This document shows positions 11,026-53,024 of a DNA stretch of 64,000 nucleotides, in pieces. Under the pieces are notes generated by a model. The model was not told the DNA's origin and searched no databases. It was given only the letters and a program-made list of their open reading frames with translations. This DNA is from Trypanosoma brucei (taxonomy: Eukaryota), in the NCBI GenBank assembly GCA_000002445.1, contig CP000067.1, positions 1,120,001-1,184,000 of the forward strand, written 5' to 3'. The position numbers and the translations under genes are program-made. How positions within the stretch are numbered: position 1 is the first letter of the stretch; the number at the start of each line of letters is the position of its first letter.

Positions 11026-12382
11026 GACCTACACCTAAAACAAGACAGCATAAATAATTACAGTATTTGGGAAAGGAAGGAGAGCCATGTGTGAACCAGT
11101 CGGAAAATGTATCAACGGCAACATGACCTGCACAGAGTTACTGAAGCCACGGTGTGAGCAACAGCTAGCATTTAAGGAGGGGGAAATATAACACCTATGG
11201 GAATAAGTAACGCTTACACAATGTGAAAGGAGGGTTGCAGGAGACTACAGCCAGTGCAAATGGACACAAGAGTCCTTGCTGCCGCTTTTCATAACACAAT
11301 CCAACACACAATGCAATGACTCGAGAAACCCCAACACTTCACCAGCACCTGCGGAAGCTACGGGCGTGTGTGCATGTGTGTGCACAATTTGGGGAACTCG
11401 GGCCTGACACAGACAGGATGGCAGGTAATGATAGAGTGGGAGGATTACCGCATTCCAGCAACTCTACAATGGAATAAACTTGATTCGATACCTTGCATCA
11501 ACAACTCAAACTCTCTAAATTTTTGTGAGACGCAGATGGGAAGTGAAGGAACGTGTATTCGGTGATGATGTTAAAACTAGATAAGATTTTGTGATGCACA
11601 TGTAGTTATGTTAAAAAAGAAAAAAAATATCGAGGGCTTCCTGGTGGCAAAAGTTTACCAACCCCCCATCCCCCTAAAAAAAAAAGATTTCACCGTGCAA
11701 CAGATGTGAAACTGCAGTAAATATTGAGAACTTCCCGTCATTCACACTGCGCACTATGACACCGGTTAGCTTATCTTGCTATCAGGGTCTGAAACTTTAT
11801 GTGGGAGGTGGCTAACATTTAGAGCTTTCTTCACGATATTCAGAAATGACACTGACAGAAAGCTGGTGATTACGAAAGGAGCAACGTATATTACTAGCGG
11901 TGTTCTTCAGGGGAATGTATGATCCGTGAGTATACGCCCCTGCATGTGTAAATGGATTGATTCATTTTGCGTGCTAACTCTTTTCTACTTTTCCAGAAAG
12001 TGACTTAGGTTGTGGCACCACAAAGCCGTTCCGGCGTATTAAAATTATGATGGAAAAGAAAGGAGAGGGAAATAGCCTGACTAACATTTGGGGCACCTTA
12101 TCCATGGAAGGGATCCAAACGTTGTAAAAAAACAAGTCACTGCCACTGACTCACATTGGTATTTGCCGGATAACCTCACCGTGCTCCACGGCTGTACGTA
12201 CGGTAACAAGACAAAGATTAGCACATGAAAACAAAGAAAAATTTAAGTTCTTTTAAAAAATACCCATGTTAGGAATATAACACTCTCACGACAAGAAAAA
12301 AGAAAATCTGCGGTACCTTGCATCAACAACTCAAAATCAATTTAAAAAAATATATGTGTTCACGTTCGAATTCGTGTTCGCC

Positions 12383-13537
12383 CTACAAACAACTCATTTC
12401 CCGGAGAGGTCCCTGGCTGCCCGTTAGCGAGCGGTGCGAGATGTTCTTCTCATTGTTGAACCGCCGCCTCAACTCGTTGTAGTCACTCTCATTTACATGG
12501 TGTACCATAATGGAGCTTTTTGTCACGGCTCCCAACGTTGTACCGGCGTGCACATCGTGAAACGAGCACTTAGGCTCGTGAACGTAGGTTATATTCGTAT
12601 GATACATGGCCCTCCGCAATGTAATCCCTACCATTGCGTCTTCAACCATGACACAGAGAGACTGGAACTCTTCGTCACGTATTGCTGTGTAGGGGACGTG
12701 GATTATTGTTCGAAGGGGCTTATACGAGACAAAACGTTCCGCGACGTCACGTCCTAGAGTATAGCACGCGCCATAAGCATAATTAAATCGGAAACCTTGC
12801 ACGGTGTGCACGTCTATCGTACCCCAGTATAGCCCACGGCGAGGTAGGTTGCGTAAGTCTGCTAGATACTGAGGAACGCGTAGGAACATATCGTCATCTG
12901 CCTTCGCAATATACGGGGCATACGGAAATAAGCACACTGACATGTCAAACCACAAGAATGTCTTGCGGCTCATGCCAATCTCCGCATCAATGCCCCACTT
13001 CCCACCTTGACCCACACGCTTCCTACCTGACGGCCGGCCCTCGTTCATTGGCAACGTTAAGATGTCACTCCATTGAGTAGCTTCCTCCACCAGTGCCTTG
13101 GTATAAGTGTAGCCATTTTCGGGATGTCGCGCAAGGATGTACAGCGGCAGCATTTCACCAGAGAAACCGTTCGCACGTACTGCAACGCCGGCGTATGTCC
13201 AGCATGCTGCCCGTTGCAGGTCGCGGCGGCGCCGTCTCACGTCCAGGTCTATGGAGGGGATGCCGATTACCACCAAGTACCGTCGCTCCTCCCATGCGCT
13301 AACGACGGGAGCTGGGACGTAAGTTAGCGACTGTTTCACCCACAGAGGGCGTTTCCAGTAGGTGCAGCGTTCGGTGATTTTTTTTCTTTCCCGGCGTCTA
13401 ACTCGTTCCACATCCTCTAGGAGCGTCCTGAAAGTAACAATCGCCGCGGACACTGCCAAGAGAATAATGATAAGCCAATACCTCCGCTTGTGTGCTGTAC
13501 ATCTTCCAATCCGATTTCCCCGAAGCGCGGGGGCCAT
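12383..13537 (-). CDS. Glycosyltransferase, array copy 2
   Basis: 384 aa. Differs from copy 1 by a single R->G (NRIGRC vs NRIRRC). Confidence 0.75.
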   Translation of the reverse strand: MAPALRGNRIGRCTAHKRRYWLIIILLAVSAAIVTFRTLLEDVERVRRRERKKITERCTYWKRPLWVKQSLTYVPAPVVSAWEERRYLVVIGIPSIDLDVRRRRRDLQRAACWTYAGVAVRANGFSGEMLPLYILARHPENGYTYTKALVEEATQWSDILTLPMNEGRPSGRKRVGQGGKWGIDAEIGMSRKTFLWFDMSVCLFPYAPYIAKADDDMFLRVPQYLADLRNLPRRGLYWGTIDVHTVQGFRFNYAYGACYTLGRDVAERFVSYKPLRTIIHVPYTAIRDEEFQSLCVMVEDAMVGITLRRAMYHTNITYVHEPKCSFHDVHAGTTLGAVTKSSIMVHHVNESDYNELRRRFNNEKNISHRSLTGSQGPLREMSCL

Positions 13538-14583
13538 AACTACACATCAAAGGCGTTCATATTTGAGAATCCAGTGGAGTTGAGGGGGCGTAGAGACCCT
13601 ACTGTCGGTGATAAGTTGACGTAAAAAGTACAGCCGCTGTGGAAGCAAACATCGTTACCCAACGAACGTACACAAAAACGGAAACGAAACGACCAAAACT
13701 GCTGGACCAACGTGTCAGAAAACAATAATCATGACATGAAAGTAAGCCCAACTCACGGCCATGCAAGTATTCACACATACGAAAACAACAAAAATAACGT
13801 CGCCTGAAAAAAAAAAAAACCAAACAATAGTAAGAAGTTACTTCAAGATATCAACCTGAATCCGCTGCGCATGTAAGCGCTGCTAGAGAGCAAAACGTAA
13901 TAAAGAAAAAAAAACGTGCCACAAAATAGCAAAAGGTGAATTTATTACTCGCTAGATATGGGGGGAAAAAGCGAGCGACTGTCGTAGCCATTCTTTTAAT
14001 TCAGCCCTGGTACACGTCCATTTACTTAACAGGGGAGAGGCATCGCCTCATCGTCGAAAATACCCACAAAACGGAGGTTTAAGAACTCTAGATGGATAAA
14101 AGCTCGATCCACAGTGGCTGTGTGGTAAGTGGCATGACACGCTATTCAACCCAATAATAAGGTAAAAATTAACAAACAAAAGGTTCTGAGCAAAGCATAC
14201 ACTGCATACAACCACCCCGGCAAGCAACAAACCGCGCAGAGGATTTGGCACGATACCAAGAAATGGTACAGGTACAATAAAATTAGATTTAGGGCTCACA
14301 CACTTTAGTAAGCACAAACAAGCACCACGTCTTGACTACAGTTCGCGAACAATTTCGTCAAGTACGTACAAACCAACAATCACCATAGTTCTATCTTCCT
14401 CCCGCATATTTACATTTGATGAATTTTTCTACGAAGTTTCGCCACCGTAATATGCAGAACGCCTAACTCATTCACACATATTGGAGACGTACATAATCAA
14501 TGGTCTTTCTGTGCGCACATATGCGTTGAGGTTATGCTCTACACAACAAGGGTTGGCACAAAGGTCTCCCCATGTGGATAAAA

Positions 14584-15576
14584 TCATTGTCCTGCAGCGG
14601 CAGACTTCGATCTCACACAAACACGCTGGGGAGGAATGGAGGGGCCAGTTTCTGTTAATGTGTCATCTTTCTGCTGTCGACTATGCCGAGTCTCAGTTCG
14701 AGATGCCACCCCAACATTACCTTTCGCTACCTTCGAGAAACCCGTAAATGCACCGAAGGCTGATGAGCCCCGCAACCTTGGATATGGCATTCCACTTAGC
14801 CGACGCGAGGCACCCCACAAAGATGTGGTAGTGTTACATTTCGTGGAGTGAGTAGCATGTGACCGGCAGTTTTTGATATCTCTTAACACCTCATGGGATG
14901 CCTTTACGAAGCCACTGAAGGACGGCTTTTGCCGCACAACCTCACCATCCATCTTACTGCGCTCACTCGGGTTCTCTGTGAGTGCACCAACAGCTGTACG
15001 TTCCTCCAATTGTACTGTATTGGGAAGTGGCGGAGGCTCAACGGGGTACACATGTGTTGCCGTCTGCTGCACATCGTCACCTTTGATCTTACATTCAGGA
15101 GACACACCCTTCAGGTTGGTTTCCACAGCTTGTTTTCCATTGCTTACAGCCGGTTTCACTTTTCGGTCAGTGTGTTTCCTGCATACTTGTGCTGTGCGTT
15201 CCGTGGCAGACGGAAGTACATCCTCACACACATGACCTTTGCTACAGCTCACATCACTCTTTTGTTCGCACGGAGGTGTAGGTGGTTCACTGCAAAGGAC
15301 TCGCGTCTGACTTCTTTCCCGCCCTTTACAGTAGTATTCCTCATGGGCCGCTAACCTTGCCATCTCTACTTCCATACCACAGCACGAGCATTCTACCAAT
15401 TGTTGCCCACAGCGGCTGATGTGTTCACTACAGCCAAAACGCCTACAATAGGGGCACTTGCGAAGATTTTTGGGCAGTAAATCAGAACTTTTCCGCTTCG
15501 TAGGGTCACGCACAAGAGCACCATTGTACTTCCAGGGTGCACCACTCGTTACAGTTGTCTTGCTCTCCGTTTCCAT
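14584..15576 (-). CDS. C2HC zinc-finger hypothetical protein, array copy 3
   Basis: 330 aa. One K->R difference (EVLRDIKN) relative to copies 1 and 2. Confidence 0.5.
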   Translation of the reverse strand: METESKTTVTSGAPWKYNGALVRDPTKRKSSDLLPKNLRKCPYCRRFGCSEHISRCGQQLVECSCCGMEVEMARLAAHEEYYCKGRERSQTRVLCSEPPTPPCEQKSDVSCSKGHVCEDVLPSATERTAQVCRKHTDRKVKPAVSNGKQAVETNLKGVSPECKIKGDDVQQTATHVYPVEPPPLPNTVQLEERTAVGALTENPSERSKMDGEVVRQKPSFSGFVKASHEVLRDIKNCRSHATHSTKCNTTTSLWGASRRLSGMPYPRLRGSSAFGAFTGFSKVAKGNVGVASRTETRHSRQQKDDTLTETGPSIPPQRVCVRSKSAAAGQ

Positions 15577-16108
15577 GACCTACACCTAAAACAAGACAGC
15601 ATAAATAATTACAGTATTTGGGAAAGGAAGGAGAGCCATGTGTGAACCAGTCGGAAAATGTATCAACGGCAACATGACCTGCACAGAGTTACTGAAGCCA
15701 CGGTGTGAGCAACAGCTAGCATTTAAGGAGGGGGAAATATAACACCTATGGGAATAAGTAACGCTTACACAATGTGAAAGGAGGGTTGCAGGAGACTACA
15801 GCCAGTGCAAATGGACACAAGAGTCCTTGCTGCCGCTTTTCATAACACAATCCAACACACAATGCAATGACTCGAGAAACCCCAACACTTCACCAGCACC
15901 TGCGGAAGCTACAGGCGTGTGTGCATGTGTGTGCACAATTTGGGGAACTCGGGCCTGACACAGACAGGATGGCAGGTAATGATAGAGTGGGAGGATTACC
16001 GCATTCCAGCAACTCTACAATGGAATAAACTTGATTCGATACCTTGCATCAACAACTCAAAATCAATTTAAAAAAATATATGTGTTCACGTTCGAATTCG
16101 TGTTCGCC

Positions 16109-17266
16109 CTACAAACAACTCATTTCCCGGAGAGGTCCCTGGCTGCCCGTTAGCGAGCGGTGCGAGGTGTTCTTCTCATTGTTGAACCGCCGCCTCAACT
16201 CGTTGTAGTCACTCTCATTTACATGGTGTACCATAATGGAGCTTTTTGTCACGGCTCCCAACGTTGTACCGGCGTGCACATCGTGAAACGAGCACTTAGG
16301 CTCGTGAACGTAGGTTATATTCGTATGATACATGGCCCTCCGCAATGTAATCCCTACCATTGCGTCTTCAACCATGACACAGAGAGACTGGAACTCTTCG
16401 TCACGTATTGCTGTGTAGGGGACGTGGATTATTGTTCGAAGGGGCTTATACGAGACAAAACGTTCCGCGACGTCACGTCCTAGAGTATAGCACGCGCCAT
16501 AAGCATAATTAAATCGGAAACCTTGCACGCTGAGCACGTCTATCGTACCCCAGTATAGCCCACGGCGAGGTAGGTTGCGTAAGTCTGCTAGATACTGAGG
16601 AACGCGTAGGAACATATCGTCATCTGCCTTCGCAATATACGGGGCATACGGAAATAAGCACACTGACATGTCAAACCACAAGAATGTCTTGCGGCTCATG
16701 CCAATCTCCGCATCAATGCCCCACTTCCCACCTTGACCCACACGCTTCCTACCTGACGGCCGGCCCTCGTTCATTGGCAACGTTAAGATGTCACTCCATT
16801 GAGTAGCTTCCTCCACCAGTGCCTTGGTATAAGTGTAGCCATTTTCGGGATGTCGCGCAAGGATGTACAGCGGCAGCATTTCACCAGAGAAACCGTTCGC
16901 ACGTACTGCAACGCCGGCGTATGTCCAGCATGCTGCCCGTTGCAGGTCGCGGCGGCGCCGTCTCACGTCCAGGTCTATGGAGGGGATGCCGATTACCACC
17001 AAGTACCGTCGCTCCTCCCATGCGCTAACGACGGGAGCTGGGACGTAAGTTAGCGACTGTTTCACCCACAGAGGGTGCTCTGAGAGATGTTGACCTTTAT
17101 TGGCTATAGCTGTTTTCGGAACGTTGATTTCCCTTTTGCCGGCTCTCTCTGAGTTGTTGGAGAGCGTTGTCAAGAGAGATGTGACAACGCATATGGTAAA
17201 GAGCAATACCGTCAAAGAAATGCTGCTGCGCAGTATTCTTCCGCGACTGTTAAATTGCCTACACAT
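16109..17266 (-). CDS. Glycosyltransferase, array-edge copy with an unrelated N-terminal cytoplasmic/anchor/stem region
   Basis: 385 aa. From PLWVKQSLTY onward it is ~99% identical to copies 1 and 2, including ADDDMFL. The first ~63 aa (MCRQFNSRGRILRSSISLTVLLFTICVVTSLLTTLSNNSERAGKREINVPKTAIANKGQHLSEH) are unrelated to the MAPALRGN... N-terminus of the other copies, yet still contain a hydrophobic signal-anchor. The DNA junction is at ~17076. Confidence 0.7.
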   Translation of the reverse strand: MCRQFNSRGRILRSSISLTVLLFTICVVTSLLTTLSNNSERAGKREINVPKTAIANKGQHLSEHPLWVKQSLTYVPAPVVSAWEERRYLVVIGIPSIDLDVRRRRRDLQRAACWTYAGVAVRANGFSGEMLPLYILARHPENGYTYTKALVEEATQWSDILTLPMNEGRPSGRKRVGQGGKWGIDAEIGMSRKTFLWFDMSVCLFPYAPYIAKADDDMFLRVPQYLADLRNLPRRGLYWGTIDVLSVQGFRFNYAYGACYTLGRDVAERFVSYKPLRTIIHVPYTAIRDEEFQSLCVMVEDAMVGITLRRAMYHTNITYVHEPKCSFHDVHAGTTLGAVTKSSIMVHHVNESDYNELRRRFNNEKNTSHRSLTGSQGPLREMSCL

Positions 17267-17685
17267 TATATAGAGGTGACTGTCTTTTGAAAGTATAGTA
17301 GAATAGTGAGAGTGTTGGTGTAGTAAATAGCGGGTTCTAACGATCGTATGCGCGTTCTTGTTGATGTTTTTTTCTGTTAATTTGCCGATATAACAGTAAG
17401 GTGGAGGGGAATTGCCTCACTTTGATGATTTGCTTTTCCTCTGCATCACTGTGTGCATGTAACGTTACAGCAGGATACGCTGTTTGTGGTGGTTGTCCTC
17501 TTTTGAGCTATTCGCTCTTTTTTCCCTCAGCGAAATGTAGCACCTTGACCCTCCCATTTACAATTCTCTCTGATGTCGAGTTAAGTTGGATCGCTGTGAT
17601 GGTAGTGCGGTCTTCTCTGTTTGTTCGGAGGTCATTGCAAAGAACTCCGGCTCTTTAACCAAGTCTCCTTTTTTCCCCCCTCTCA

Positions 17686-47178: not shown

Positions 47179-48173
47179 AAGGAAAATACCTGATCATCAA
47201 AAAAAGGAAGGGGGAAAATGAGAAGACAAAAAAGACAATTTCCAACCATTCAGACACATAATCAAAACTGCCTCCATCGCCTCTCCACACACATCATCAT
47301 TCATGTATCCGATACAAAAACATAAAACATCACTAGGCACAAGAGTAAATGTGTAAATAGAGCATTATAATATCATAGACTGGATGCCAGTAACAAAAAC
47401 AAAGCACACTAGCAGTCACAGTTAACATTCAACTGGCAACAGCATGGCAGACATTGTTCAGTTTCATATTCCTTGGTTGTCTAAAGGTAAAATAGAAAGA
47501 ATGGGTCTGAGGGAATATGAGGAAAGTTACAATAAGCATATGGAAACATGCAGGAAGCTATGCACAGGTATTAGATGTTGTAAATAGTTGTCGGCAGCAG
47601 TTTCATTTGAGAAGTACCTCTCACAAGCCAAAATCTCCAAAGGAGAAATGTAAAAAGGGATTGAAGCAAACACGGAAAATAAACACCAGATGATAGTTTT
47701 ACTTCATGGCAACCCCCACTTCACGGGTTTCACCTTCTTATCGTACACATCTTTAGGTGTATGAACACAACTGATAACAACACTTTAAGGATAGAGAAAG
47801 TCACATAGCAACCCAAACAAAATTAATTAATAAAATCGATTGAAAACTTAACACTGAAAAAAAAAAGATAATAAAAAACTGTAAAAACATATGTGTTTCC
47901 ATCCAATTCCACACCAAAAACAAGAAGATTTGCGATCTTCAAACACAGTTCTCAAAAGGAGAGTACCCATGTCAGAAATGGAAAGCGTCTTTATCTACAG
48001 AGATATTTTAAGCACCCACCATATGAGGAGATTATTGCGTACACAAAAAAGAAAAAAATTAATGGCCACTTTATACAAAATAAATCTAAAGAAAAGATTG
48101 CACACATGATGTAAAATAACTTATTCATTCACTTCAATAGCAAAGCGCACATATAGCAATGTTACGGGGAATA

Positions 48174-51100
48174 TTAGCTGGCAGCGCTAACATTATCCAA
48201 GTCAATCAATTGCACGCCGCTACAATCACCTTCACCGCAGAAGGAATTGGAGGATGAAGAAAGCATTATAGCAGCTGCAACCCCCCCGAGTGAGAAGAAA
48301 CTTCCGCCCCTTTCAAAGGAAGGCACACTACCAGAGGTATTTCTCGTTCCAAAATCCATAACACAACCCACCTTCGCAGCAATCCGACGAGTGACACAGC
48401 GGCAACTGGCTTCATTCCAAGCATCCATACCTGGGGGTTTCTTAACACGCCAACGCTCACAAAAAGTTGCAAGCATCTTCTGTCGCTGGGTAGCAGGGAA
48501 TGTGCCAAGCAGAGCATCAATACAACCAGCAACTTGTTGGGCAGTGGCAGTTAAACCACGTTCAGGAGATCCCGACCCACTGGTGATACTACCAGTTACA
48601 TTATCTTCTTCCTCCTCAAATTCACGGTCAAGGCGCAGAGCAGCAAAGGTACGGCCAGGTACAGCATTCAACTGGTACATTTCCACAGGCTTCGGCACAC
48701 CACGTAGCGGCACATCACCCAAAGGCGTTACATTAAGTTGCTCACGCTCTTCACCACTCAGTGACAGGTATGTTGAGCGCGTCATCAGCACCTGACCACC
48801 GTTACCAACACTCTCCGTGCGTGCTGCCATGTTGGATGTGCGTCCATAATAGTCGTAACCTTTCGTTACTTCATCATGACGAATATCACACAATCCAGTA
48901 TGAATCCCCACACGTACACGCAACCCATTCCACAGTTGCCGATAAACCTCAGGGTCCAGGCTCGCAGTTGGTGGTGTGTAATCACTGTCATCTTCCGCAC
49001 GCTTTCGTTCGAATTCACGGTAAGACTCATCAAGCTCAGTGGTCTTCCAGTCATGGTTTAGAAAATCACGTTGCAAGTCACATGCGAGTTGTGCAGCAGC
49101 GAAGGGACTTTTACACGCAATCATAAAAGAGTCTCCAACAGTTTTCACTTCGTAGCACTCATACCGTGTGATGAGGGAGCGGATCAAACGGTGATGTGTT
49201 GCCACAAGGTCAGGCATTTGCTCAGGGTGTGCTGCCCACTGCGCTGTACTGCTCTCGATGTCAGTGAATATTAATGTTACGGGGTCTGTTGGTTCCTTGG
49301 GAGCATTATTATTGTCACGGGCGTTCCGGCGTGATGCCGATACAAGTACCAGAACCGTAACAAACAGTGCCAATACAACAACGCAGCTGACTGCAATAGC
49401 AGCAATGTGTCCTCTCTTAAGTCGAAACCCTTCTGTGTCACCGTATTTCATCGAGGGTGTGACGTGAGTCACCACAGGAGACACGGAAGGATTCAGAACA
49501 CGTGACATCGACCATACAGAAATATGCGTCGCACCATAGTTCACAGCACAGTGTTTCTCTTCAAATGAAGCCCCGTTAGTACACTTGTCATCAAAAGGAC
49601 CATATCGCATATCATCAACTGTAATGACAGATTGGCTGAAGATGGCGTCTACAAGTTCCTCCGGCGTTACATGTCCCATACGTTGCAGGATATTTATCAT
49701 TGCACGTGCGGTGACATATCCAAGTAATGACAATGGCTTCCACTTCGACTCATCTCGTACAACTCTGTGGAACTCACGTACCATATCGGATTTTGTGTTC
49801 TTATCTCCCCAATGTGGCAGATTCGTTGCGAATAGCAGACGGTCAGCAAATGGCTTGTCACGGAAGGCACTCACAAGTTCATCATAGAGTAACGCAACAT
49901 CAAAGAACGGGACAAAGATACGCACATTATGGTGTTTGCCAAGGTGAGAGAGGATTATGGGGATATCATCTGAGATGAGACCTGCAACTAATACCTCACC
50001 TGCAGTCGGTAGCTTGTCTCTCAAAGTAGAACCTTCACCACTCGCAACAAAGGAGCTTAATGACGATTCAAAGAAGTCAAGTGTTTTTTGCAACACTTTC
50101 CTAACTCCTCTCGTATCACCACTACGCACAATGGCATGCATCTTTCCAGCACCATTTTGTATGATATGCTCAACTATCACGAATAGTTGTTGCTCAAGTG
50201 TTGGTGACAGGTGGATCACATTCCTTCTGGGGTTACTCAGTTGTGGTGTGAGTGTTATGGGATCGATGAATGCCATACCCTTCGTCGACAGTAACGAATC
50301 ATCCACAACACCAAACACAGCAGTTACAACTCGCTTCTCCACTTCATCATACAGAGCTGTAGAAGTGTCATGAGATTTCGAGGATAGCCAGTGTAAAAAG
50401 AATCTATCAGAGTGACCAAGTTGACCCTTTCCAACAACATAAAAGGCACCATCGTATATTGCCTCTGCAGTACGCAGTGCCTTTGGGTCATCAGTTAGTT
50501 TAAACATGATGCCACTCAATGGGGCGTACAGCTGTGACAGGTCTCTATAGCAGCGAGATGAAGTAAGAGCTAATACACCTTCCTTCATAGGGTACAGACG
50601 GAGATCCTTTCCCATCTTCTTCATGTACACCACATTCCCACCCTGATTACATAAACATGATGCACCCCGCTCACCCGCCATACCACGGCACTCACCACCA
50701 AAGTCACCAACAACAATATCATCAATTACATAACGACGTTGATTGTAAAGTGATGTAATAAATGCATCCCTGCTAGTTAGCCATTCGCGACAACTCAGTG
50801 CTTGTTTCAATACCTCTCCAGCAATCCATCCGTCAACCATCAGCTCAGCTTCAGTGTCTTGCTCGGTGAAGTTGCTTTCGTCAACATTTAGGTTAACATT
50901 CCATTGTCCAGTGCCACTCAGAATATCTTTCTTTTCCTTCAGGTACTTTGCCATATCACCCTTGAATCGTTTGATTGCATCATAGCCATCATCCTTCGCA
51001 AGTGGATTAGTCCCAGTTATTATTATCTTATCAGGCACAAACCTGTCTCTACCCAATTCCTTTTCCCACTTATTCTCAATGACATATTGGAGTGTAGAGG

Positions 51101-51908
51101 GTATGAGCAAATATCCACCTTTTGTCCTTTCATCTTCTAATGATTTCATTAGGAATTTCTTCGTATCATTGATTGGAGAGCCAAATACAATCACACCCTG
51201 AGGTCGAGTATTTGCAAACTTATTCCACTCCGCACTGAAGCTACTGTCATCCGATTCCTTACCAATTTGACTCTTCAATGCAAAAACACCGCACAGTTTG
51301 CGATCCATCCGTGTTGTCAATTCCACAGCAAGCTCATATTCATCATCACCATAAGAAACATCTTTCAAGTACATGAAACCCAGCCGATGTAACCGTAACT
51401 GAGTGATAGCATAACGGAGAAGAGCAAGCATCTCAGCAGCGGGTGATGCTGTCAGGAAGTACAGATTAGGATTCCAACTGCGTACCTTACTGGATCCTGT
51501 GAGGGGTGAGAAACTAATCACATTCTTTTCTTTGAAATATTTCAAGAGACCTAGAGTGTTTTTATCACCCACAGGTCCCAGTATAACAGGGAGTTCCTTA
51601 CCATCATGGGTTGTCATGTGTTTCCCGAGATAGTCAGCATATTTAGAATCATCCATGGGGGGAACATATACCACTTCCACATTAGCACCCGACGGCGTGT
51701 TTCCGTTGGTAATGGATGCGTTGAAGCCTGCAGTAATAGGATCATATATCTTTGCTGAAATCTTGTTACTGTATAACATGTTGTATACCTTCACCTGTAT
51801 TTTATCATTTGCAAGTGATGATGCAGTCAGCACCTGTAGTAACAGAGAAAACACTAGGTAAGTGAATGCACCATCTCTAACATACAATTCACGCATGAAG
51901 GTAACCAT
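48174..51908 (-). CDS. GRESAG4: Receptor-type adenylate cyclase (GRESAG4-like), array copy 1, intact
   Basis: 1244 aa. Signal peptide MVTFMRELYVRDGAFTYLVFSLLLQVLTASSLA. A large extracellular domain, then a single TM IAAIAVSCVVVLALFVTVLVLV. Cytosolic class III cyclase catalytic domain (VTLIFTDIESSTAQW...YEVKTVGDSFMIACKSP...GIHTGLCDIRHDEVTKGYDYYGRTSNMAARTESVGNGGQVLMT). This architecture is characteristic of trypanosome ESAG4/GRESAG4 cyclases. There are no expression-site neighbours, so a chromosome-internal GRESAG4-type copy is more likely than ESAG4. Confidence 0.9.
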   Translation of the reverse strand: MVTFMRELYVRDGAFTYLVFSLLLQVLTASSLANDKIQVKVYNMLYSNKISAKIYDPITAGFNASITNGNTPSGANVEVVYVPPMDDSKYADYLGKHMTTHDGKELPVILGPVGDKNTLGLLKYFKEKNVISFSPLTGSSKVRSWNPNLYFLTASPAAEMLALLRYAITQLRLHRLGFMYLKDVSYGDDEYELAVELTTRMDRKLCGVFALKSQIGKESDDSSFSAEWNKFANTRPQGVIVFGSPINDTKKFLMKSLEDERTKGGYLLIPSTLQYVIENKWEKELGRDRFVPDKIIITGTNPLAKDDGYDAIKRFKGDMAKYLKEKKDILSGTGQWNVNLNVDESNFTEQDTEAELMVDGWIAGEVLKQALSCREWLTSRDAFITSLYNQRRYVIDDIVVGDFGGECRGMAGERGASCLCNQGGNVVYMKKMGKDLRLYPMKEGVLALTSSRCYRDLSQLYAPLSGIMFKLTDDPKALRTAEAIYDGAFYVVGKGQLGHSDRFFLHWLSSKSHDTSTALYDEVEKRVVTAVFGVVDDSLLSTKGMAFIDPITLTPQLSNPRRNVIHLSPTLEQQLFVIVEHIIQNGAGKMHAIVRSGDTRGVRKVLQKTLDFFESSLSSFVASGEGSTLRDKLPTAGEVLVAGLISDDIPIILSHLGKHHNVRIFVPFFDVALLYDELVSAFRDKPFADRLLFATNLPHWGDKNTKSDMVREFHRVVRDESKWKPLSLLGYVTARAMINILQRMGHVTPEELVDAIFSQSVITVDDMRYGPFDDKCTNGASFEEKHCAVNYGATHISVWSMSRVLNPSVSPVVTHVTPSMKYGDTEGFRLKRGHIAAIAVSCVVVLALFVTVLVLVSASRRNARDNNNAPKEPTDPVTLIFTDIESSTAQWAAHPEQMPDLVATHHRLIRSLITRYECYEVKTVGDSFMIACKSPFAAAQLACDLQRDFLNHDWKTTELDESYREFERKRAEDDSDYTPPTASLDPEVYRQLWNGLRVRVGIHTGLCDIRHDEVTKGYDYYGRTSNMAARTESVGNGGQVLMTRSTYLSLSGEEREQLNVTPLGDVPLRGVPKPVEMYQLNAVPGRTFAALRLDREFEEEEDNVTGSITSGSGSPERGLTATAQQVAGCIDALLGTFPATQRQKMLATFCERWRVKKPPGMDAWNEASCRCVTRRIAAKVGCVMDFGTRNTSGSVPSFERGGSFFSLGGVAAAIMLSSSSNSFCGEGDCSGVQLIDLDNVSAAS

Positions 51909-51929
51909 GATACTGGTAACTCAACGTAA

Positions 51930-51995
51930 TCCAACGTGAAAACTACAAGACAAAAAGGGAATAATAACAAAGTATTGGTACAGGATTAAGAGACT
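51930..51995 (-). promoter_or_regulatory. Probable polypyrimidine tract / trans-splice acceptor region upstream of AC copy 1; equivalent blocks lie upstream of copies 2 and 3
   Basis: The plus strand here is purine-rich (caagacaaaaagggaataataacaaag), so the minus-strand pre-mRNA is pyrimidine-rich. It begins only ~20 nt upstream of the 51908 start codon; the AG dinucleotide between them was not resolved. The same sequence recurs at ~56790-56830 and ~61640-61680. Inferred from general trypanosomatid mRNA processing. Confidence 0.35.
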
Positions 51996-53024
51996 GCATA
52001 TGTACAGATATGTTGGATTGTGACACAATAAGAGTCCATATGATAATTGTATATAAGAGTGTAGGAAAGGGAACTATTATGATGGATAGCGTTATATAAA
52101 CCATAACAGTGAGAAAGTAATTCAACATACATTCCCCTATACACACATCATTCATGTATCCGATACAAAAACGTAAAACATCACTAGGCACAAGAGTAAA
52201 TGTGTAAATAGAGCATTATAATATCATAGACTGGATGCCAGTAACAAAAACAAAGCACACTAGCAGTCACAGTTAACATTCAACTGGCAACAGCATGGCA
52301 GACATTGTTCAGTTTCATATTCCTTGGTTGTCTAAAGGTAAAATAGAAAGAATGGGTCTGAGGGAATATGAGGAAAGTTACAATAAGCATATGAAAACAT
52401 GCAGGAAGCTATGCACAGGTATTAGATGTTGCAAATAGTTGTCGGCAGCAGTTTCATTTGAGAGATACCTCTCACAAGCCAAAATCTCCAAAGGAGAAAT
52501 GTAAAAAGGGATTGAAGCAAACACGGAAAATAAACACCAGATGATAGTTTTACTTCATGGCAACCCCCACTTCACGGGTTTCACCTTCTTATCGTACACA
52601 TCTTTAGGTGTATGAACACAACTGATAACAACACATTAGAGGTAGAACCTCACTTGACCACAGCACACACAAACGGCAATTTAAGCTTATTTAACTAATA
52701 AATGTATTATTTAAAAGAGTGAGATAATCAAAAGTGGTATGGGTGCTCACATCCAATTCCACACCAAAAACAAGAAGATTTGCGATCTTCAAACACAGCT
52801 ATCAAAAGGAGAGTACCCATGTCAGAAATAGAAAGCGTCTTTATCACAAAGATATTTAAATCACCCACCATATGAGGAGATTCTTGTATTTACAAAAGTA
52901 AAAAAAAAATTAATGGCCACTTTATACAAAATAAATCTAAAGAAAAGATTGCACACATGATGTAAAACAACTTATTCATTCACTTCAATAGCAAAGCGCA
53001 CATACAGCAATGTTACGGGGAATA

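What the first reader, a model, noticed from the sequence alone, without database searches (positions are those of the whole stretch)
17000..17266. Array boundary falls inside the glycosyltransferase ORF, creating a copy with an unrelated cytoplasmic tail, anchor and stem
Sequence identity between array units stops at ~17076, which is inside the coding region of the right-most (transcriptionally first) glycosyltransferase. That copy keeps the identical catalytic domain from PLWVKQSLTY onward. Its first ~63 residues (MCRQFNSRGRILRSSISLTVLLFTICVVTSLLTT...) share nothing with MAPALRGNRIRRCTAHKRRYWLIIILLAVSAAIVTF... of the other copies, yet they still form a type II signal-anchor. In Golgi glycosyltransferases the tail, TM and stem govern localisation and retention. 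The array therefore encodes the same catalytic domain with two different targeting modules. Either the duplicated copies acquired a new 5-prime end, or the edge copy is the ancestral form.
Basis: partly seen in the sequence, partly recalled or inferred. Interest (0 to 1): 0.55.

Follow-up and report, generated by a model that had tools for sequence, protein, structure and literature searches.

The report
Glycosyltransferase array with two membrane anchors
In a Trypanosoma brucei tandem gene array, the first glycosyltransferase copy keeps the ancestral membrane-anchor end while the inner copies carry an unrelated one on the same catalytic domain; this is real and expressed, but it is a further example of a known pattern in trypanosome gene arrays.

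Summary
The window is T. brucei TREU927 chromosome 4, and the genes are Tb927.4.4250, 4270 and 4290 (GT67 family). Repeat identity of 99.6% ends at exactly 17075/17076, which is codon 64/65 of the first-transcribed copy. This point is the border between the variable tail/TM/stem region and the conserved GT-A domain.

Both N-termini are predicted type II anchors. Published spliced-leader sites lie 17 nt and 2 nt upstream of the two annotated ATGs, so the difference is coding.

The edge N-terminus is ancestral. It is homologous to that of the chromosome 8 paralogue (z=9.2). It also aligns with the first copy of the syntenic T. congolense array, whose inner copies likewise carry a different N-terminus.

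The inner module lies in an 863-bp repeat-only segment and has no detectable relative. Catalytic cores group by strain rather than by N-terminal type, which indicates concerted evolution that stops at the domain border.

Different targeting is not shown. TrypTag places both N-terminally tagged forms in the 'endocytic' (Golgi/lysosome) region, and the edge form is at background level.

Divergent edge copies and chimeric isoforms are already documented for T. brucei arrays, so this is a new member of a known kind, of modest interest.

The parts
17076..17266 (-). Edge-specific N-terminal module of Tb927.4.4290 (codons 1-64: tail MCRQFNSRGRILRSS, TM ISLTVLLFTICVVTSLLTT, stem to SEH). This is the ancestral tail/TM/stem.
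   Evidence: define the module. It is homologous to the chr 8 paralogue N-terminus (SW 63, z=9.2, 0/1000 shuffles). tblastn to the T. congolense first copy extends to residue 7. AF2 predicts helix 10-42 and pLDDT<50 at 43-56.
17267..17285 (-). 17-nt 5' UTR of the edge copy plus its AG splice acceptor (17284-17285). The major spliced-leader site is 17283.
   Evidence: Kolev 2010 supplementary file 28 lists Tb927.4.4290 at 1137283 with a 5' UTR of 17 nt. Window coordinate = chromosome coordinate - 1,120,000. The AG was checked.
16037..17075 (-). Shared block C of the edge copy: catalytic-domain CDS (16109-17075, codons 65-385 plus stop) and 72 nt of 3' UTR. It is 99.6% identical to 12311-13349 and 7757-8795.
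   Evidence: Searches give the identity. The fold is GT-A and beta3GT-like. The family consensus starts at residue 72.
13350..13537 (-). Inner N-terminal module, copy Tb927.4.4270 (codons 1-63: MAPALRGNRIGRC...TYWKR). The spliced-leader site is at 13539.
   Evidence: define it. No homologue was found in two protein searches. AF2 predicts one continuous helix, residues 15-57.
8796..8983 (-). Inner N-terminal module, copy Tb927.4.4250 (differs by R13 vs G13). The spliced-leader site is at 8985.
13538..14209 (-). Non-coding part of the inner-only segment S (the whole of S is 13350-14209). The second copy of S is 8796-9658. It contains a 6-codon uORF (13560-13540) that is outside the major mRNA.
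   Evidence: no blastn hit elsewhere in the window or in L001, L006, L007 or L008. It is 97.9% identical in the Logan contigs L002-L005.
12383..13349 (-). Catalytic-domain CDS of inner copy Tb927.4.4270. The equivalent in Tb927.4.4250 is 7829-8795.
11511..12310 (-). Segment I: about 800 bp (801 bp by the unit spacing) of GT 3' UTR/intergenic sequence found only in inner units (second copy 6957-7756). It is flanked by 22-bp direct repeats and is absent from the edge unit.
   Evidence: The poly(A) site of Tb927.4.4270 at window 12152 lies inside I (Kolev file 19). The new transcript Tb4.NT.43 (12003-11629) also lies inside I.
16040..16061 (-). 22-bp repeat r (TTTGAGTTGTTGATGCAAGGTA). There is a single copy in the edge unit and paired copies in inner units, at 12314-12335 with 11489-11510, and at 7760-7781 with 6935-6956.
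14210..16036 (-). Block B of the edge unit: the 330-aa gene Tb927.4.4280 (14584-15576) with its flanks. It is 99.8% identical to the inner units (10033-11025 and 5479-6471 are the other two copies).
5105..5105 (.). Distal (transcriptionally last) boundary of the array. Unique sequence leading to the RRM gene Tb927.4.4230 begins at 5104.

Best explanation
This is the 5' limit of concerted evolution in an old tandem array of [GT67 glycosyltransferase + 330-aa gene] units on T. brucei chromosome 4 (Tb927.4.4240-4290).

The first-transcribed copy sits at the array edge. Its 5' UTR and its tail/TM/stem lie outside the repeated unit, so they escape homogenisation and keep the ancestral sequence. The inner copies share a second, unrelated 5' module, carried on the 863-bp segment S. 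Unequal crossing-over and gene conversion keep everything downstream of codon 64/65 nearly identical in all copies.

The tract ends where the variable tail/TM/stem region meets the conserved catalytic domain, because upstream of that point there is no homology to recombine through.

Both forms are trans-spliced immediately upstream of their own ATG and are made as type II membrane glycosyltransferases.

Shown here: the anatomy, the ancestral status of the edge module, concerted evolution of the core, and mRNA 5' ends (from published data). Inferred: gene conversion as the mechanism, the age of the inner module, and the idea that the two modules are functionally near-equivalent anchors (my default) rather than distinct address labels.
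For: 1. Sharp boundary. The junction lies at 17075/17076 with 99.6% identity on one side and none on the other.

2. Domain border. The boundary is where the 48-sequence family consensus begins (residue 72) and where AF2 confidence rises (pLDDT 46-49 for residues 41-60, 88 for 61-70, 96 onward).

3. Ancestral edge module. Edge N-terminus vs chr 8 paralogue gives SW 63, z=9.2. Inner vs chr 8 gives z=-0.6. The chr 4/8 duplication is T. brucei-specific (PMC2212663).

4. Syntenic T. congolense array (L006). The homologue of the 616-aa upstream neighbour is followed by GT1 (403 aa), a 330-like gene, GT2 (374 aa), a 330-like gene, GT3 (364 aa) and a 330-like gene. Only the GT core is shared there: 94% between first and inner copies, 97% between inner copies. 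The first copy has a different N-terminus from the inner ones. The T. brucei edge protein aligns to Tc GT1 from residue 7, but to Tc inner copies only from residue 64.

5. Concerted evolution. The core of a Logan inner-type gene differs by 1-2 nt from the T. b. equiperdum and gambiense edge-type cores, but by 10 nt from the TREU927 inner cores. The TREU927 edge and inner cores differ by 3 nt. The junction is at the same nucleotide in other strains.

6. Expression. Spliced-leader sites lie 17 nt and 2 nt upstream of the ATGs. The N-terminally tagged Tb927.4.4270 gives a non-faint signal.

7. Precedent. Divergent edge copies with remodelled intergenic sequence, and the PGK chimera, are described for T. 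brucei arrays (PMC1855330).

8. Other arrays. Array boundaries also fall inside GT ORFs on chr 8. In L008 copy 1 the break is at the tail/TM border and leaves no upstream ATG. The TREU927 chr 8 copies differ in their last ~55 residues.
Against: - The origin of S and of the 801-bp segment I is unknown. No residual similarity links them to the edge flanks, to chr 8 or to T. congolense. An old common origin is therefore assumed, not shown.
- The T. brucei and T. congolense inner N-termini are not detectably related (z=-0.6), so the two-module state could have arisen independently in each species.
- Edge vs Tc first-copy N-terminal similarity is only marginal on its own (z=2.6, p=0.028).
- In T. 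brucei the homogenised region extends far beyond the CDS on the 3' side, which also fits a recent re-amplification.
- The T. b. gambiense DAL972 and T. b. equiperdum IVM-t1 assemblies show only one unit, of the edge type. I cannot tell whether this is a collapsed assembly or a real loss of the inner units.
Confidence: 0.68

Rival explanations
1. Functional sub-specialisation. The two tail/TM/stem modules, together with the different 5' and 3' UTRs, are kept by selection. They would place the same catalytic domain in different Golgi or endosomal sub-compartments or enzyme complexes, or express it in different life-cycle stages.
For: - Both modules are intact ORFs in every strain seen.
- The same first-versus-inner pattern occurs in the syntenic T. 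congolense array.
- The modules differ in tail length and charge (15 aa, +4 vs 21 aa, +7).
- They differ in predicted stem structure: a disordered stem in the edge form, and a continuous charged helix to residue 57 in the inner form.
- The 3' UTRs diverge after about 72-97 nt because of segment I.
- In procyclic TrypTag lines, which keep the native 3' UTR, the inner form is visible and the edge form is at background.
- That tail, TM and stem govern Golgi retention in other eukaryotes is established knowledge.
Against: - TrypTag gives the same broad term ('endocytic') for both forms.
- The edge N-terminus changes between strains at 3.1% (2 synonymous, 4 non-synonymous), about the non-coding rate of 2.4-2.6% and four times the core rate of 0.8%.
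- The inner modules of T. brucei and T. congolense are unrelated in sequence.
- The AF2 stem predictions rest on no alignment depth in that region.
Confidence: 0.25
2. Recent origin by a tandem duplication whose breakpoint fell inside the ORF. The truncated downstream copy would then have been rescued by capture of a foreign or previously non-coding 863-bp segment, which supplied a new splice acceptor, ATG and hydrophobic anchor (a neo-N-terminus), and then amplified.
For: - The inner units are about 99.8% identical to each other (6406-bp block).
- S has no relative in any protein database searched and no relative in the DNA available, as expected for de novo exonisation.
- A breakpoint inside a GT ORF that was not rescued is seen on chr 8, in L008 copy 1.
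- Single-unit loci exist in two assemblies.
Against: - It requires an in-frame ATG, a 19-residue hydrophobic stretch, a positive-inside tail and a splice acceptor 2 nt upstream to arise by chance in filler DNA.
- It also requires a second inner-only insertion, segment I.
- The breakpoint coincides with the domain border, and the T. congolense array shows the same pattern. Both follow naturally from homology-limited conversion.
- The inner module and its junction are shared by TREU927, T. equiperdum OVI and the Logan samples, whose cores differ by up to 10 nt. The event therefore predates strain divergence.
Confidence: 0.2
3. The N-terminal difference is untranslated. All copies would start at a common downstream ATG, so the proteins are the same.
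For: None found.
Against: - The major spliced-leader sites lie upstream of the annotated ATGs, so these are the first AUGs of the mRNAs.
- The next in-frame Met is residue 130/129. It is inside the fold, after the conserved motifs at residues 88-128, and would leave no membrane anchor.
- An N-terminal mNeonGreen fusion at the MAPAL start gives a membrane-system signal.
Confidence: 0.02
4. Assembly artefact: a mis-joined repeat in the reference.
For: Repeat arrays are often mis-assembled. Two other assemblies show one unit only.
Against: Both junction types recur in independent assemblies and read sets: L001, L007 and L009 for the edge junction, and L002-L005 and L009 for the inner junction. 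The OVI contig runs from the edge copy through S into the next MAPAL start.
Confidence: 0.01

Closest known systems
T. brucei phosphoglycerate kinase array (PGKA/B/C)
   Same: It is a tandem array in which gene conversion homogenises the catalytic body while the copies keep different terminal parts, giving isoforms from one locus (as summarised in PMC1855330, and PMC2212663).
   Different: In PGK the distinguishing part is a C-terminal extension (and an insertion) with demonstrated glycosomal versus cytosolic targeting. Here the variable part is the N-terminal tail/TM/stem, and no difference in location has been demonstrated.
'Mixed dynamics' tandem arrays of Jackson 2007 (e.g. Tb105a, Tb32, Tb113, Tb82)
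   Same: There is an atypical copy at an array end with a distinctive terminus and intergenic sequences that do not align with the rest of the array (PMC1855330).
   Different: In those cases the edge copy is usually divergent over much or all of its length. Here the divergence is all-or-none at a single nucleotide position, and the remainder is 99.6% identical.
Orthologous T. congolense IL3000 array (contig CAEQ01002531.1; L006)
   Same: It has the same gene order and the same upstream neighbour. The first GT copy has an N-terminus different from the inner copies, and only the catalytic core is shared.
   Different: The break is 17 codons further upstream, so part of the stem is shared. The C-termini also differ, and the intervening genes and intergenic regions are not homogenised. 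The inner modules of the two species are not detectably related.
Paralogous chromosome 8 array (Tb927.8.8090/8100, assigned by inference to TbGT16)
   Same: It derives from the same ancestral locus, its N-terminus is homologous to the edge module, and its array boundaries also fall inside the ORF.
   Different: All intact copies share one N-terminal type. The boundary produces a different C-terminus in TREU927, or a 5'-truncated copy without an upstream ATG in T. b. equiperdum. It does not produce a second intact anchor.
Tail/TM/stem-dependent Golgi retention of type II glycosyltransferases in animals, yeast and plants
   Same: The architecture matches: a short basic cytoplasmic tail, a single TM helix, a stem, then a GT-A catalytic domain.
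   Different: That is a functional principle established in other eukaryotes (general knowledge). It has not been tested for these two modules in trypanosomes.

Membership tests
GT67 / beta3-glycosyltransferase-like UDP-Gal/GlcNAc transferases of kinetoplastids | The three motifs WG, Y(I/V/F)xKxDDD and ED(A/V/I/L/M)(M/L)x(G/A), as listed in PMC9472816 | tested here: met
   GKWG (W182-G183), YIAKADDD (210-217) and EDAMVG (300-305) are present in all three copies. K213, D215-217 and E300 are invariant, and W182, G183, Y210, D301, M303 and G305 are >=90% conserved, in the 48-sequence alignment.
GT67 / beta3-glycosyltransferase-like UDP-Gal/GlcNAc transferases of kinetoplastids | GT-A fold related to GT31 beta3-transferases | tested here: met
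   The AF2 model has mean pLDDT 89.9. The best Foldseek PDB hits are B3GalT5, B3GNT2 and B3GalT6, with E 4e-12 to 1e-10. Pfam Galactosyl_T scores 27.8 bits against a cut-off of 23.
GT67 / beta3-glycosyltransferase-like UDP-Gal/GlcNAc transferases of kinetoplastids | Type II membrane topology (N-in signal anchor) | tested here: met
   This is by prediction only: a basic tail, a 19-residue hydrophobic window and an AF2 helix, for both N-termini.
GT67 / beta3-glycosyltransferase-like UDP-Gal/GlcNAc transferases of kinetoplastids | Membership of trypanosome lineage 1 (TbGT4 with three copies, TbGT16 with two copies) | tested here: inconclusive
   The proteins match XP_844575, XP_844577 and XP_844579 exactly. 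Gene IDs Tb927.4.4250/4270/4290 follow from Kolev coordinates. They are grouped with Tb927.8.8090/8100 in PMC5853035. The name TbGT4 is inferred only from 'three copies' in PMC9472816.
GT67 / beta3-glycosyltransferase-like UDP-Gal/GlcNAc transferases of kinetoplastids | Transferase activity and donor/acceptor specificity | not testable with these tools
   This subfamily is uncharacterised. PMC9472816 only postulates a beta1-4 Gal-transferase role for lineage 1.
Concertedly evolving tandem array with a divergent edge copy (Jackson 2007) | Paralogues within a genome are more alike than same-type copies between genomes | tested here: met
   Core nucleotide-difference matrix: TREU927 edge vs inner 3; TREU927 edge vs other strains' edge 7-8; Logan inner vs Tbg/Tbeq edge 1-2; Logan inner vs TREU927 inner 10.
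Concertedly evolving tandem array with a divergent edge copy (Jackson 2007) | The edge copy is discontinuously different, and its flanking intergenic sequence does not align with the internal repeats | tested here: met
   The upstream 420 nt and the N-terminal coding DNA are unrelated to those of the inner copies. The edge unit also lacks segment I.
Isoform arrays with alternative targeting modules (PGK-like) | The alternative terminal modules direct the protein to demonstrably different compartments | tested here: inconclusive
   Only published low-resolution data are available. TrypTag procyclic N-terminal tags are both 'endocytic', and the Tb927.4.4290 signal is fainter than parental. There are no bloodstream-form data.
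Dual N-termini by alternative trans-splicing of one gene (e.g. IleRS, PMC3273800 title) | One gene with two spliced-leader sites that include or exclude an N-terminal signal | tested here: not met
   The two N-termini are encoded by different genes, each with its own major spliced-leader site directly upstream of its ATG.

The most novel reading that the evidence does not exclude
The array is a conserved two-address system. Since before the T. brucei / T. congolense split, the first copy and the inner copies would have been kept with different tail/TM/stem modules and different UTRs. The same (postulated poly-LacNAc-building) catalytic domain would then work in two Golgi/endosomal sub-compartments or enzyme complexes, or in two life-cycle stages. 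Gene conversion would keep the catalytic specificity identical in both.
Probability: 0.2. Interest if true: 0.55.

Novelty: new member of a known kind. Interest (0 to 1): 0.3.

Why it matters

This locus offers a natural swap experiment: one catalytic domain (3 amino-acid differences) on two unrelated anchor/stem modules, each of which can be tagged separately. If the modules behave differently, they give a direct handle on sorting signals in trypanosomes and on how the uncharacterised lineage 1 GT67 enzymes are deployed.

If they behave the same, the locus is a clean illustration of a general rule. The tail/TM/stem region is nearly free to vary, and concerted evolution in trypanosome arrays stops at domain borders.

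It also has a practical consequence. Reads and peptides from the core cannot distinguish the genes; only the first ~190 nt and the UTRs can.

Tried and rejected
1. Donor search for the inner (MAPAL) module.
- An exhaustive phmmer search of 1.84 billion representatives gave only a spurious hit to a tandem-repeat translation, P0098.
- The word-index search of 5.8 billion clusters gave no candidate.
- Limit: both search cluster representatives. The module's own cluster is represented by an edge-type protein, so N-termini hidden inside clusters can be missed.

2. blastn (word size 9, E<1e-3) of S, I and both array flanks against the window and all fetched loci. Only self and strain copies were found. 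No tool here searches a whole T. brucei genome at the DNA level.

3. Test of whether the T. brucei and T. congolense inner modules are orthologous. There was no signal (z=-0.6).

4. Rfam over the whole window gave nothing. ORFs of 30 aa or more in S and I showed nothing notable.

5. Literature.
- No paper in the library discusses the two N-termini of Tb927.4.4250/4270/4290.
- The bloodstream-form TrypTag paper, the Nilsson spliced-leader-trapping paper and the Siegel paper yielded no usable supplementary data.

6. The TREU927 chr 8 proteins P0086 and P0088 were not on record for contig retrieval. The T. b. equiperdum chr 8 locus (L008) was used instead.

7. Rejected ideas.
- The downstream-start hypothesis.
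- Assembly artefact.
- The idea that the co-amplified 330-aa gene is a GT partner. It is a soluble Cys/His-rich protein listed by TrypTag under 'posterior tip'.
Full report
**Identity of the locus.** The three glycosyltransferase ORFs and the 330-aa ORF match T. brucei brucei TREU927 chromosome 4 proteins exactly: XP_844575, XP_844577, XP_844579 and XP_844578. Kolev et al. list Tb927.4.4270 at 1133537-1132383 on the minus strand. Window coordinate therefore equals chromosome coordinate minus 1,120,000, and the genes are Tb927.4.4250 and 4270 (inner) and 4290 (edge).

They belong to the kinetoplastid GT67 family:
- The motifs are present: WG, YIAKADDD and EDAMVG.
- The AlphaFold model is confident (pLDDT 89.9) and has a GT-A fold closest to human B3GalT5 and B3GNT2.
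- PMC5853035 groups them with Tb927.8.8090/8100.
[quoted passage not shown] Assigning those names to these genes is my inference.

**The observation.** Self-BLAST shows a tandem array from 5105 to 17075 with a 4554-bp period. There are two full units (5105-9658 and 9659-14209) and a third, edge unit. Read on the minus (coding) strand:
- An inner unit is S - C - r - I - r - B.
- The edge unit is U - C - r - B.

The segments are:
- S: 863 bp, made of 672 bp upstream sequence plus the first 188 nt of the CDS.
- C: the 1039-bp catalytic core with 72 nt of 3' UTR.
- r: a 22-bp direct repeat.
- I: 801 bp of inner-only 3' sequence.
- B: the 330-aa gene block.
- U: unique upstream sequence that includes the first 191 nt of the edge CDS.

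Identity between the edge and inner copies is 99.6% up to 17075 and at random level from 17076. The proteins are identical from P65 onward except for L245H, S246T and T367I. The N-terminal coding DNA and the upstream regions show no similarity (z=-0.55 and 0.27).

Both N-termini have a basic tail, a 19-residue hydrophobic window and a charged stem. Both junctions recur in independent assemblies, at the same nucleotide.

Kolev et al. 2010 give the following (PMC2936537, supplementary file 28; I read the columns from their internal consistency):
- Tb927.4.4290: major site at 1137283, 5' UTR of 17 nt.
- Tb927.4.4270 and 4250: major sites at 1133539 and 1128985, 5' UTR of 2 nt.

In the window each site follows an AG and a pyrimidine-rich stretch. 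The annotated ATGs are therefore the first AUGs of the mRNAs. The next in-frame Met is residue 130/129, inside the fold. TrypTag made N-terminal fusions with primers specific for each module, and the Tb927.4.4270 fusion gives a non-faint signal. The difference is coding.

**Which module is ancestral?** Chromosomes 4 and 8 carry a T. brucei-specific segmental duplication, and Jackson paired Tb927.4.4290 with Tb927.8.8090 as 'paralogous tandem gene arrays' (PMC2212663).
- The edge N-terminus is clearly homologous to the chr 8 N-terminus (Smith-Waterman 63, z=9.2, 0 of 1000 shuffles).
- The inner one is not (z=-0.6).

In T. congolense IL3000, a 15-kb contig begins with the homologue of the 616-aa gene that lies upstream of the T. 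brucei array. It then carries GT (403 aa), a 330-like gene, GT (374 aa), a 330-like gene, GT (364 aa) and a 330-like gene. The T. brucei edge protein aligns to the first T. congolense copy from residue 7, but to the inner copies only from residue 64. The T. brucei inner protein aligns to every copy only from residue 62-64.

So the edge copy keeps the ancestral tail/TM/stem, and the inner copies carry something else.

**What is the inner module?** I found no relative:
- None in 1.84 billion protein representatives (the single hit is a repeat artefact).
- None in the word-index search.
- None at the DNA level in the window or in the chr 8, T. congolense, gambiense or equiperdum loci.

It is intact in TREU927 (two copies, R/G13), T. 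equiperdum OVI and four Logan read sets. Its origin remains open, and a whole-genome DNA search was not possible with these tools.

**Why does the boundary sit there?** Three facts point to homology-limited concerted evolution rather than a chance duplication breakpoint.

First, the junction is the border between the family-wide variable region and the conserved domain. The consensus of 48 relatives starts at residue 72. AF2 confidence is below 50 for residues 43-56 and above 88 from residue 61.

Second, the syntenic T. congolense array shows the same picture. Only about 970-1045 bp of GT core is shared (94-97%), the first copy differs from the inner ones at the N-terminus, and everything else is unalignable.

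Third, the cores group by genome rather than by N-terminal type. A Logan inner-type core is 1-2 nt from the T. b. equiperdum and gambiense edge-type cores but 10 nt from the TREU927 inner cores. The TREU927 edge and inner cores differ by 3 nt.

Exchange between edge and inner copies thus continued after the strains diverged, always stopping at the same nucleotide.

Boundaries inside GT ORFs also occur in the chr 8 array. In T. b. equiperdum the first copy's repeat begins at the tail/TM border, with stop codons and no ATG upstream. In TREU927 the two chr 8 copies differ in their last ~55 residues. Jackson (PMC1855330) described edge copies with distinctive termini and remodelled intergenic sequences as a recurring pattern, and cited the PGK chimera as the functional precedent.

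**Function.** The claim that these are two 'targeting modules' is not established.
- TrypTag Table S3 (procyclic cells) annotates Tb927.4.4270 as 'endocytic', the parent term of Golgi and lysosome.
- It annotates Tb927.4.4290 as 'endocytic, cytoplasm[weak,reticulated]', flagged fainter than the parental line, which means background level.
- Between strains the edge module differs at 6 of 192 nt (2 synonymous, 4 non-synonymous; 3.1%). The core differs at 0.8% and the flanking non-coding DNA at 2.4-2.6%. The counts are small, but they suggest weak constraint.

Real differences do exist:
- Tail length and charge differ.
- AF2 predicts a disordered stem in the edge form and a continuous charged helix to residue 57 in the inner form. 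This is predicted without alignment depth in that region.
- The 3' UTRs differ. The Tb927.4.4270 poly(A) site at window 12152 lies in segment I, which the edge unit lacks.

A difference in expression is therefore at least as plausible as a difference in address. My default is that both modules are adequate, roughly equivalent signal anchors.

**Uncertain points.**
- The DAL972 and IVM-t1 assemblies show a single edge-type unit. This may be repeat collapse, or a real loss of the inner units by recombination between B blocks.
- The OVI contig shows segment I in the first unit. Because the 1-kb core is identical between copies, that contig could be a chimeric assembly path.

**Verdict.** The edge module is ancestral and the inner module is an orphan. 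The mechanism is most likely concerted evolution that stops at a domain border in an array older than the T. brucei / T. congolense split.

This is a tidy new example of a documented kind of array behaviour. It is not a new kind of system.

Noticed in passing
window 11511-12310 and 6957-7756; repeats at 16040-16061, 12314-12335, 11489-11510, 7760-7781, 6935-6956; L009 11206 and 12033: An 801-bp inner-only segment (I) of the GT 3' region is flanked by perfect 22-bp direct repeats. The edge unit of TREU927, T. b. gambiense and T. b. equiperdum has one repeat and no I. The T. equiperdum OVI contig has I in its first unit. This looks like deletion or insertion through the repeat, or in OVI a chimeric assembly path.
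   Followed up: partly
window 12003-11629, 11514-11140 and 6960-6586 (minus strand): Kolev et al. 2010 list 374-nt spliced 'new transcripts' Tb4.NT.43, NT.42 and NT.41 between each inner GT and the 330-aa gene. NT.43 lies wholly inside the inner-only segment I. No ORF of note is there, and there is no Rfam hit.
   Followed up: partly
window 13560-13540 (and 9006-8986): A 6-codon uORF (MNAFDV*) ends 2 nt before the inner-copy ATG. It lies upstream of the major spliced-leader site (13539), but would be included in mRNAs starting at the alternative 5' end that Kolev et al. report at window 13601.
   Followed up: no
window 47289-63955: A second tandem array (period about 4850 bp, 94-97% identity) of receptor-type adenylate cyclase (GRESAG4-like) genes. 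One copy is split into two overlapping ORFs (53025-55463 and 55433-56752), suggesting a frameshifted copy.
   Followed up: partly
L008 7500-7650 and 12480-13700 (T. b. equiperdum chr 8); P0086 vs P0088: In the paralogous chr 8 GT array the repeat boundary also cuts the ORF. Copy 1 loses its tail and start codon, with the break at RRS|ICATV. A third copy appears frameshifted. In TREU927 the two copies differ in the last ~55 residues.
   Followed up: partly
L006 812-2023 vs 4803-5927 and 9067-10161: In T. congolense the first GT copy also has a different, longer C-terminus (…FGCIEAGTAAGGRGSV). The three intervening 330-like genes (388, 460 and 543 aa) share only a short N-terminal region with the T. 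brucei 330-aa protein.
   Followed up: partly
window 14584-15576, 10033-11025, 5479-6471: The co-amplified 330-aa protein has a Cys/His-rich N-terminal region (CPYC…C…H…C…CSCC…H…C) but no Pfam hit. TrypTag lists Tb927.4.4240 among 'posterior tip' proteins, so it is unlikely to be a partner of the glycosyltransferase.
   Followed up: partly
window 16109-17075 vs 12383-13349: All three core differences between the TREU927 edge and inner copies are non-synonymous (L245H, S246T, T367I). The HT/LS pair at 245-246 is found with either N-terminal type in other strains (OVI edge = HT; Logan inner = LS), so it behaves as a polymorphism moved around by conversion.
   Followed up: partly
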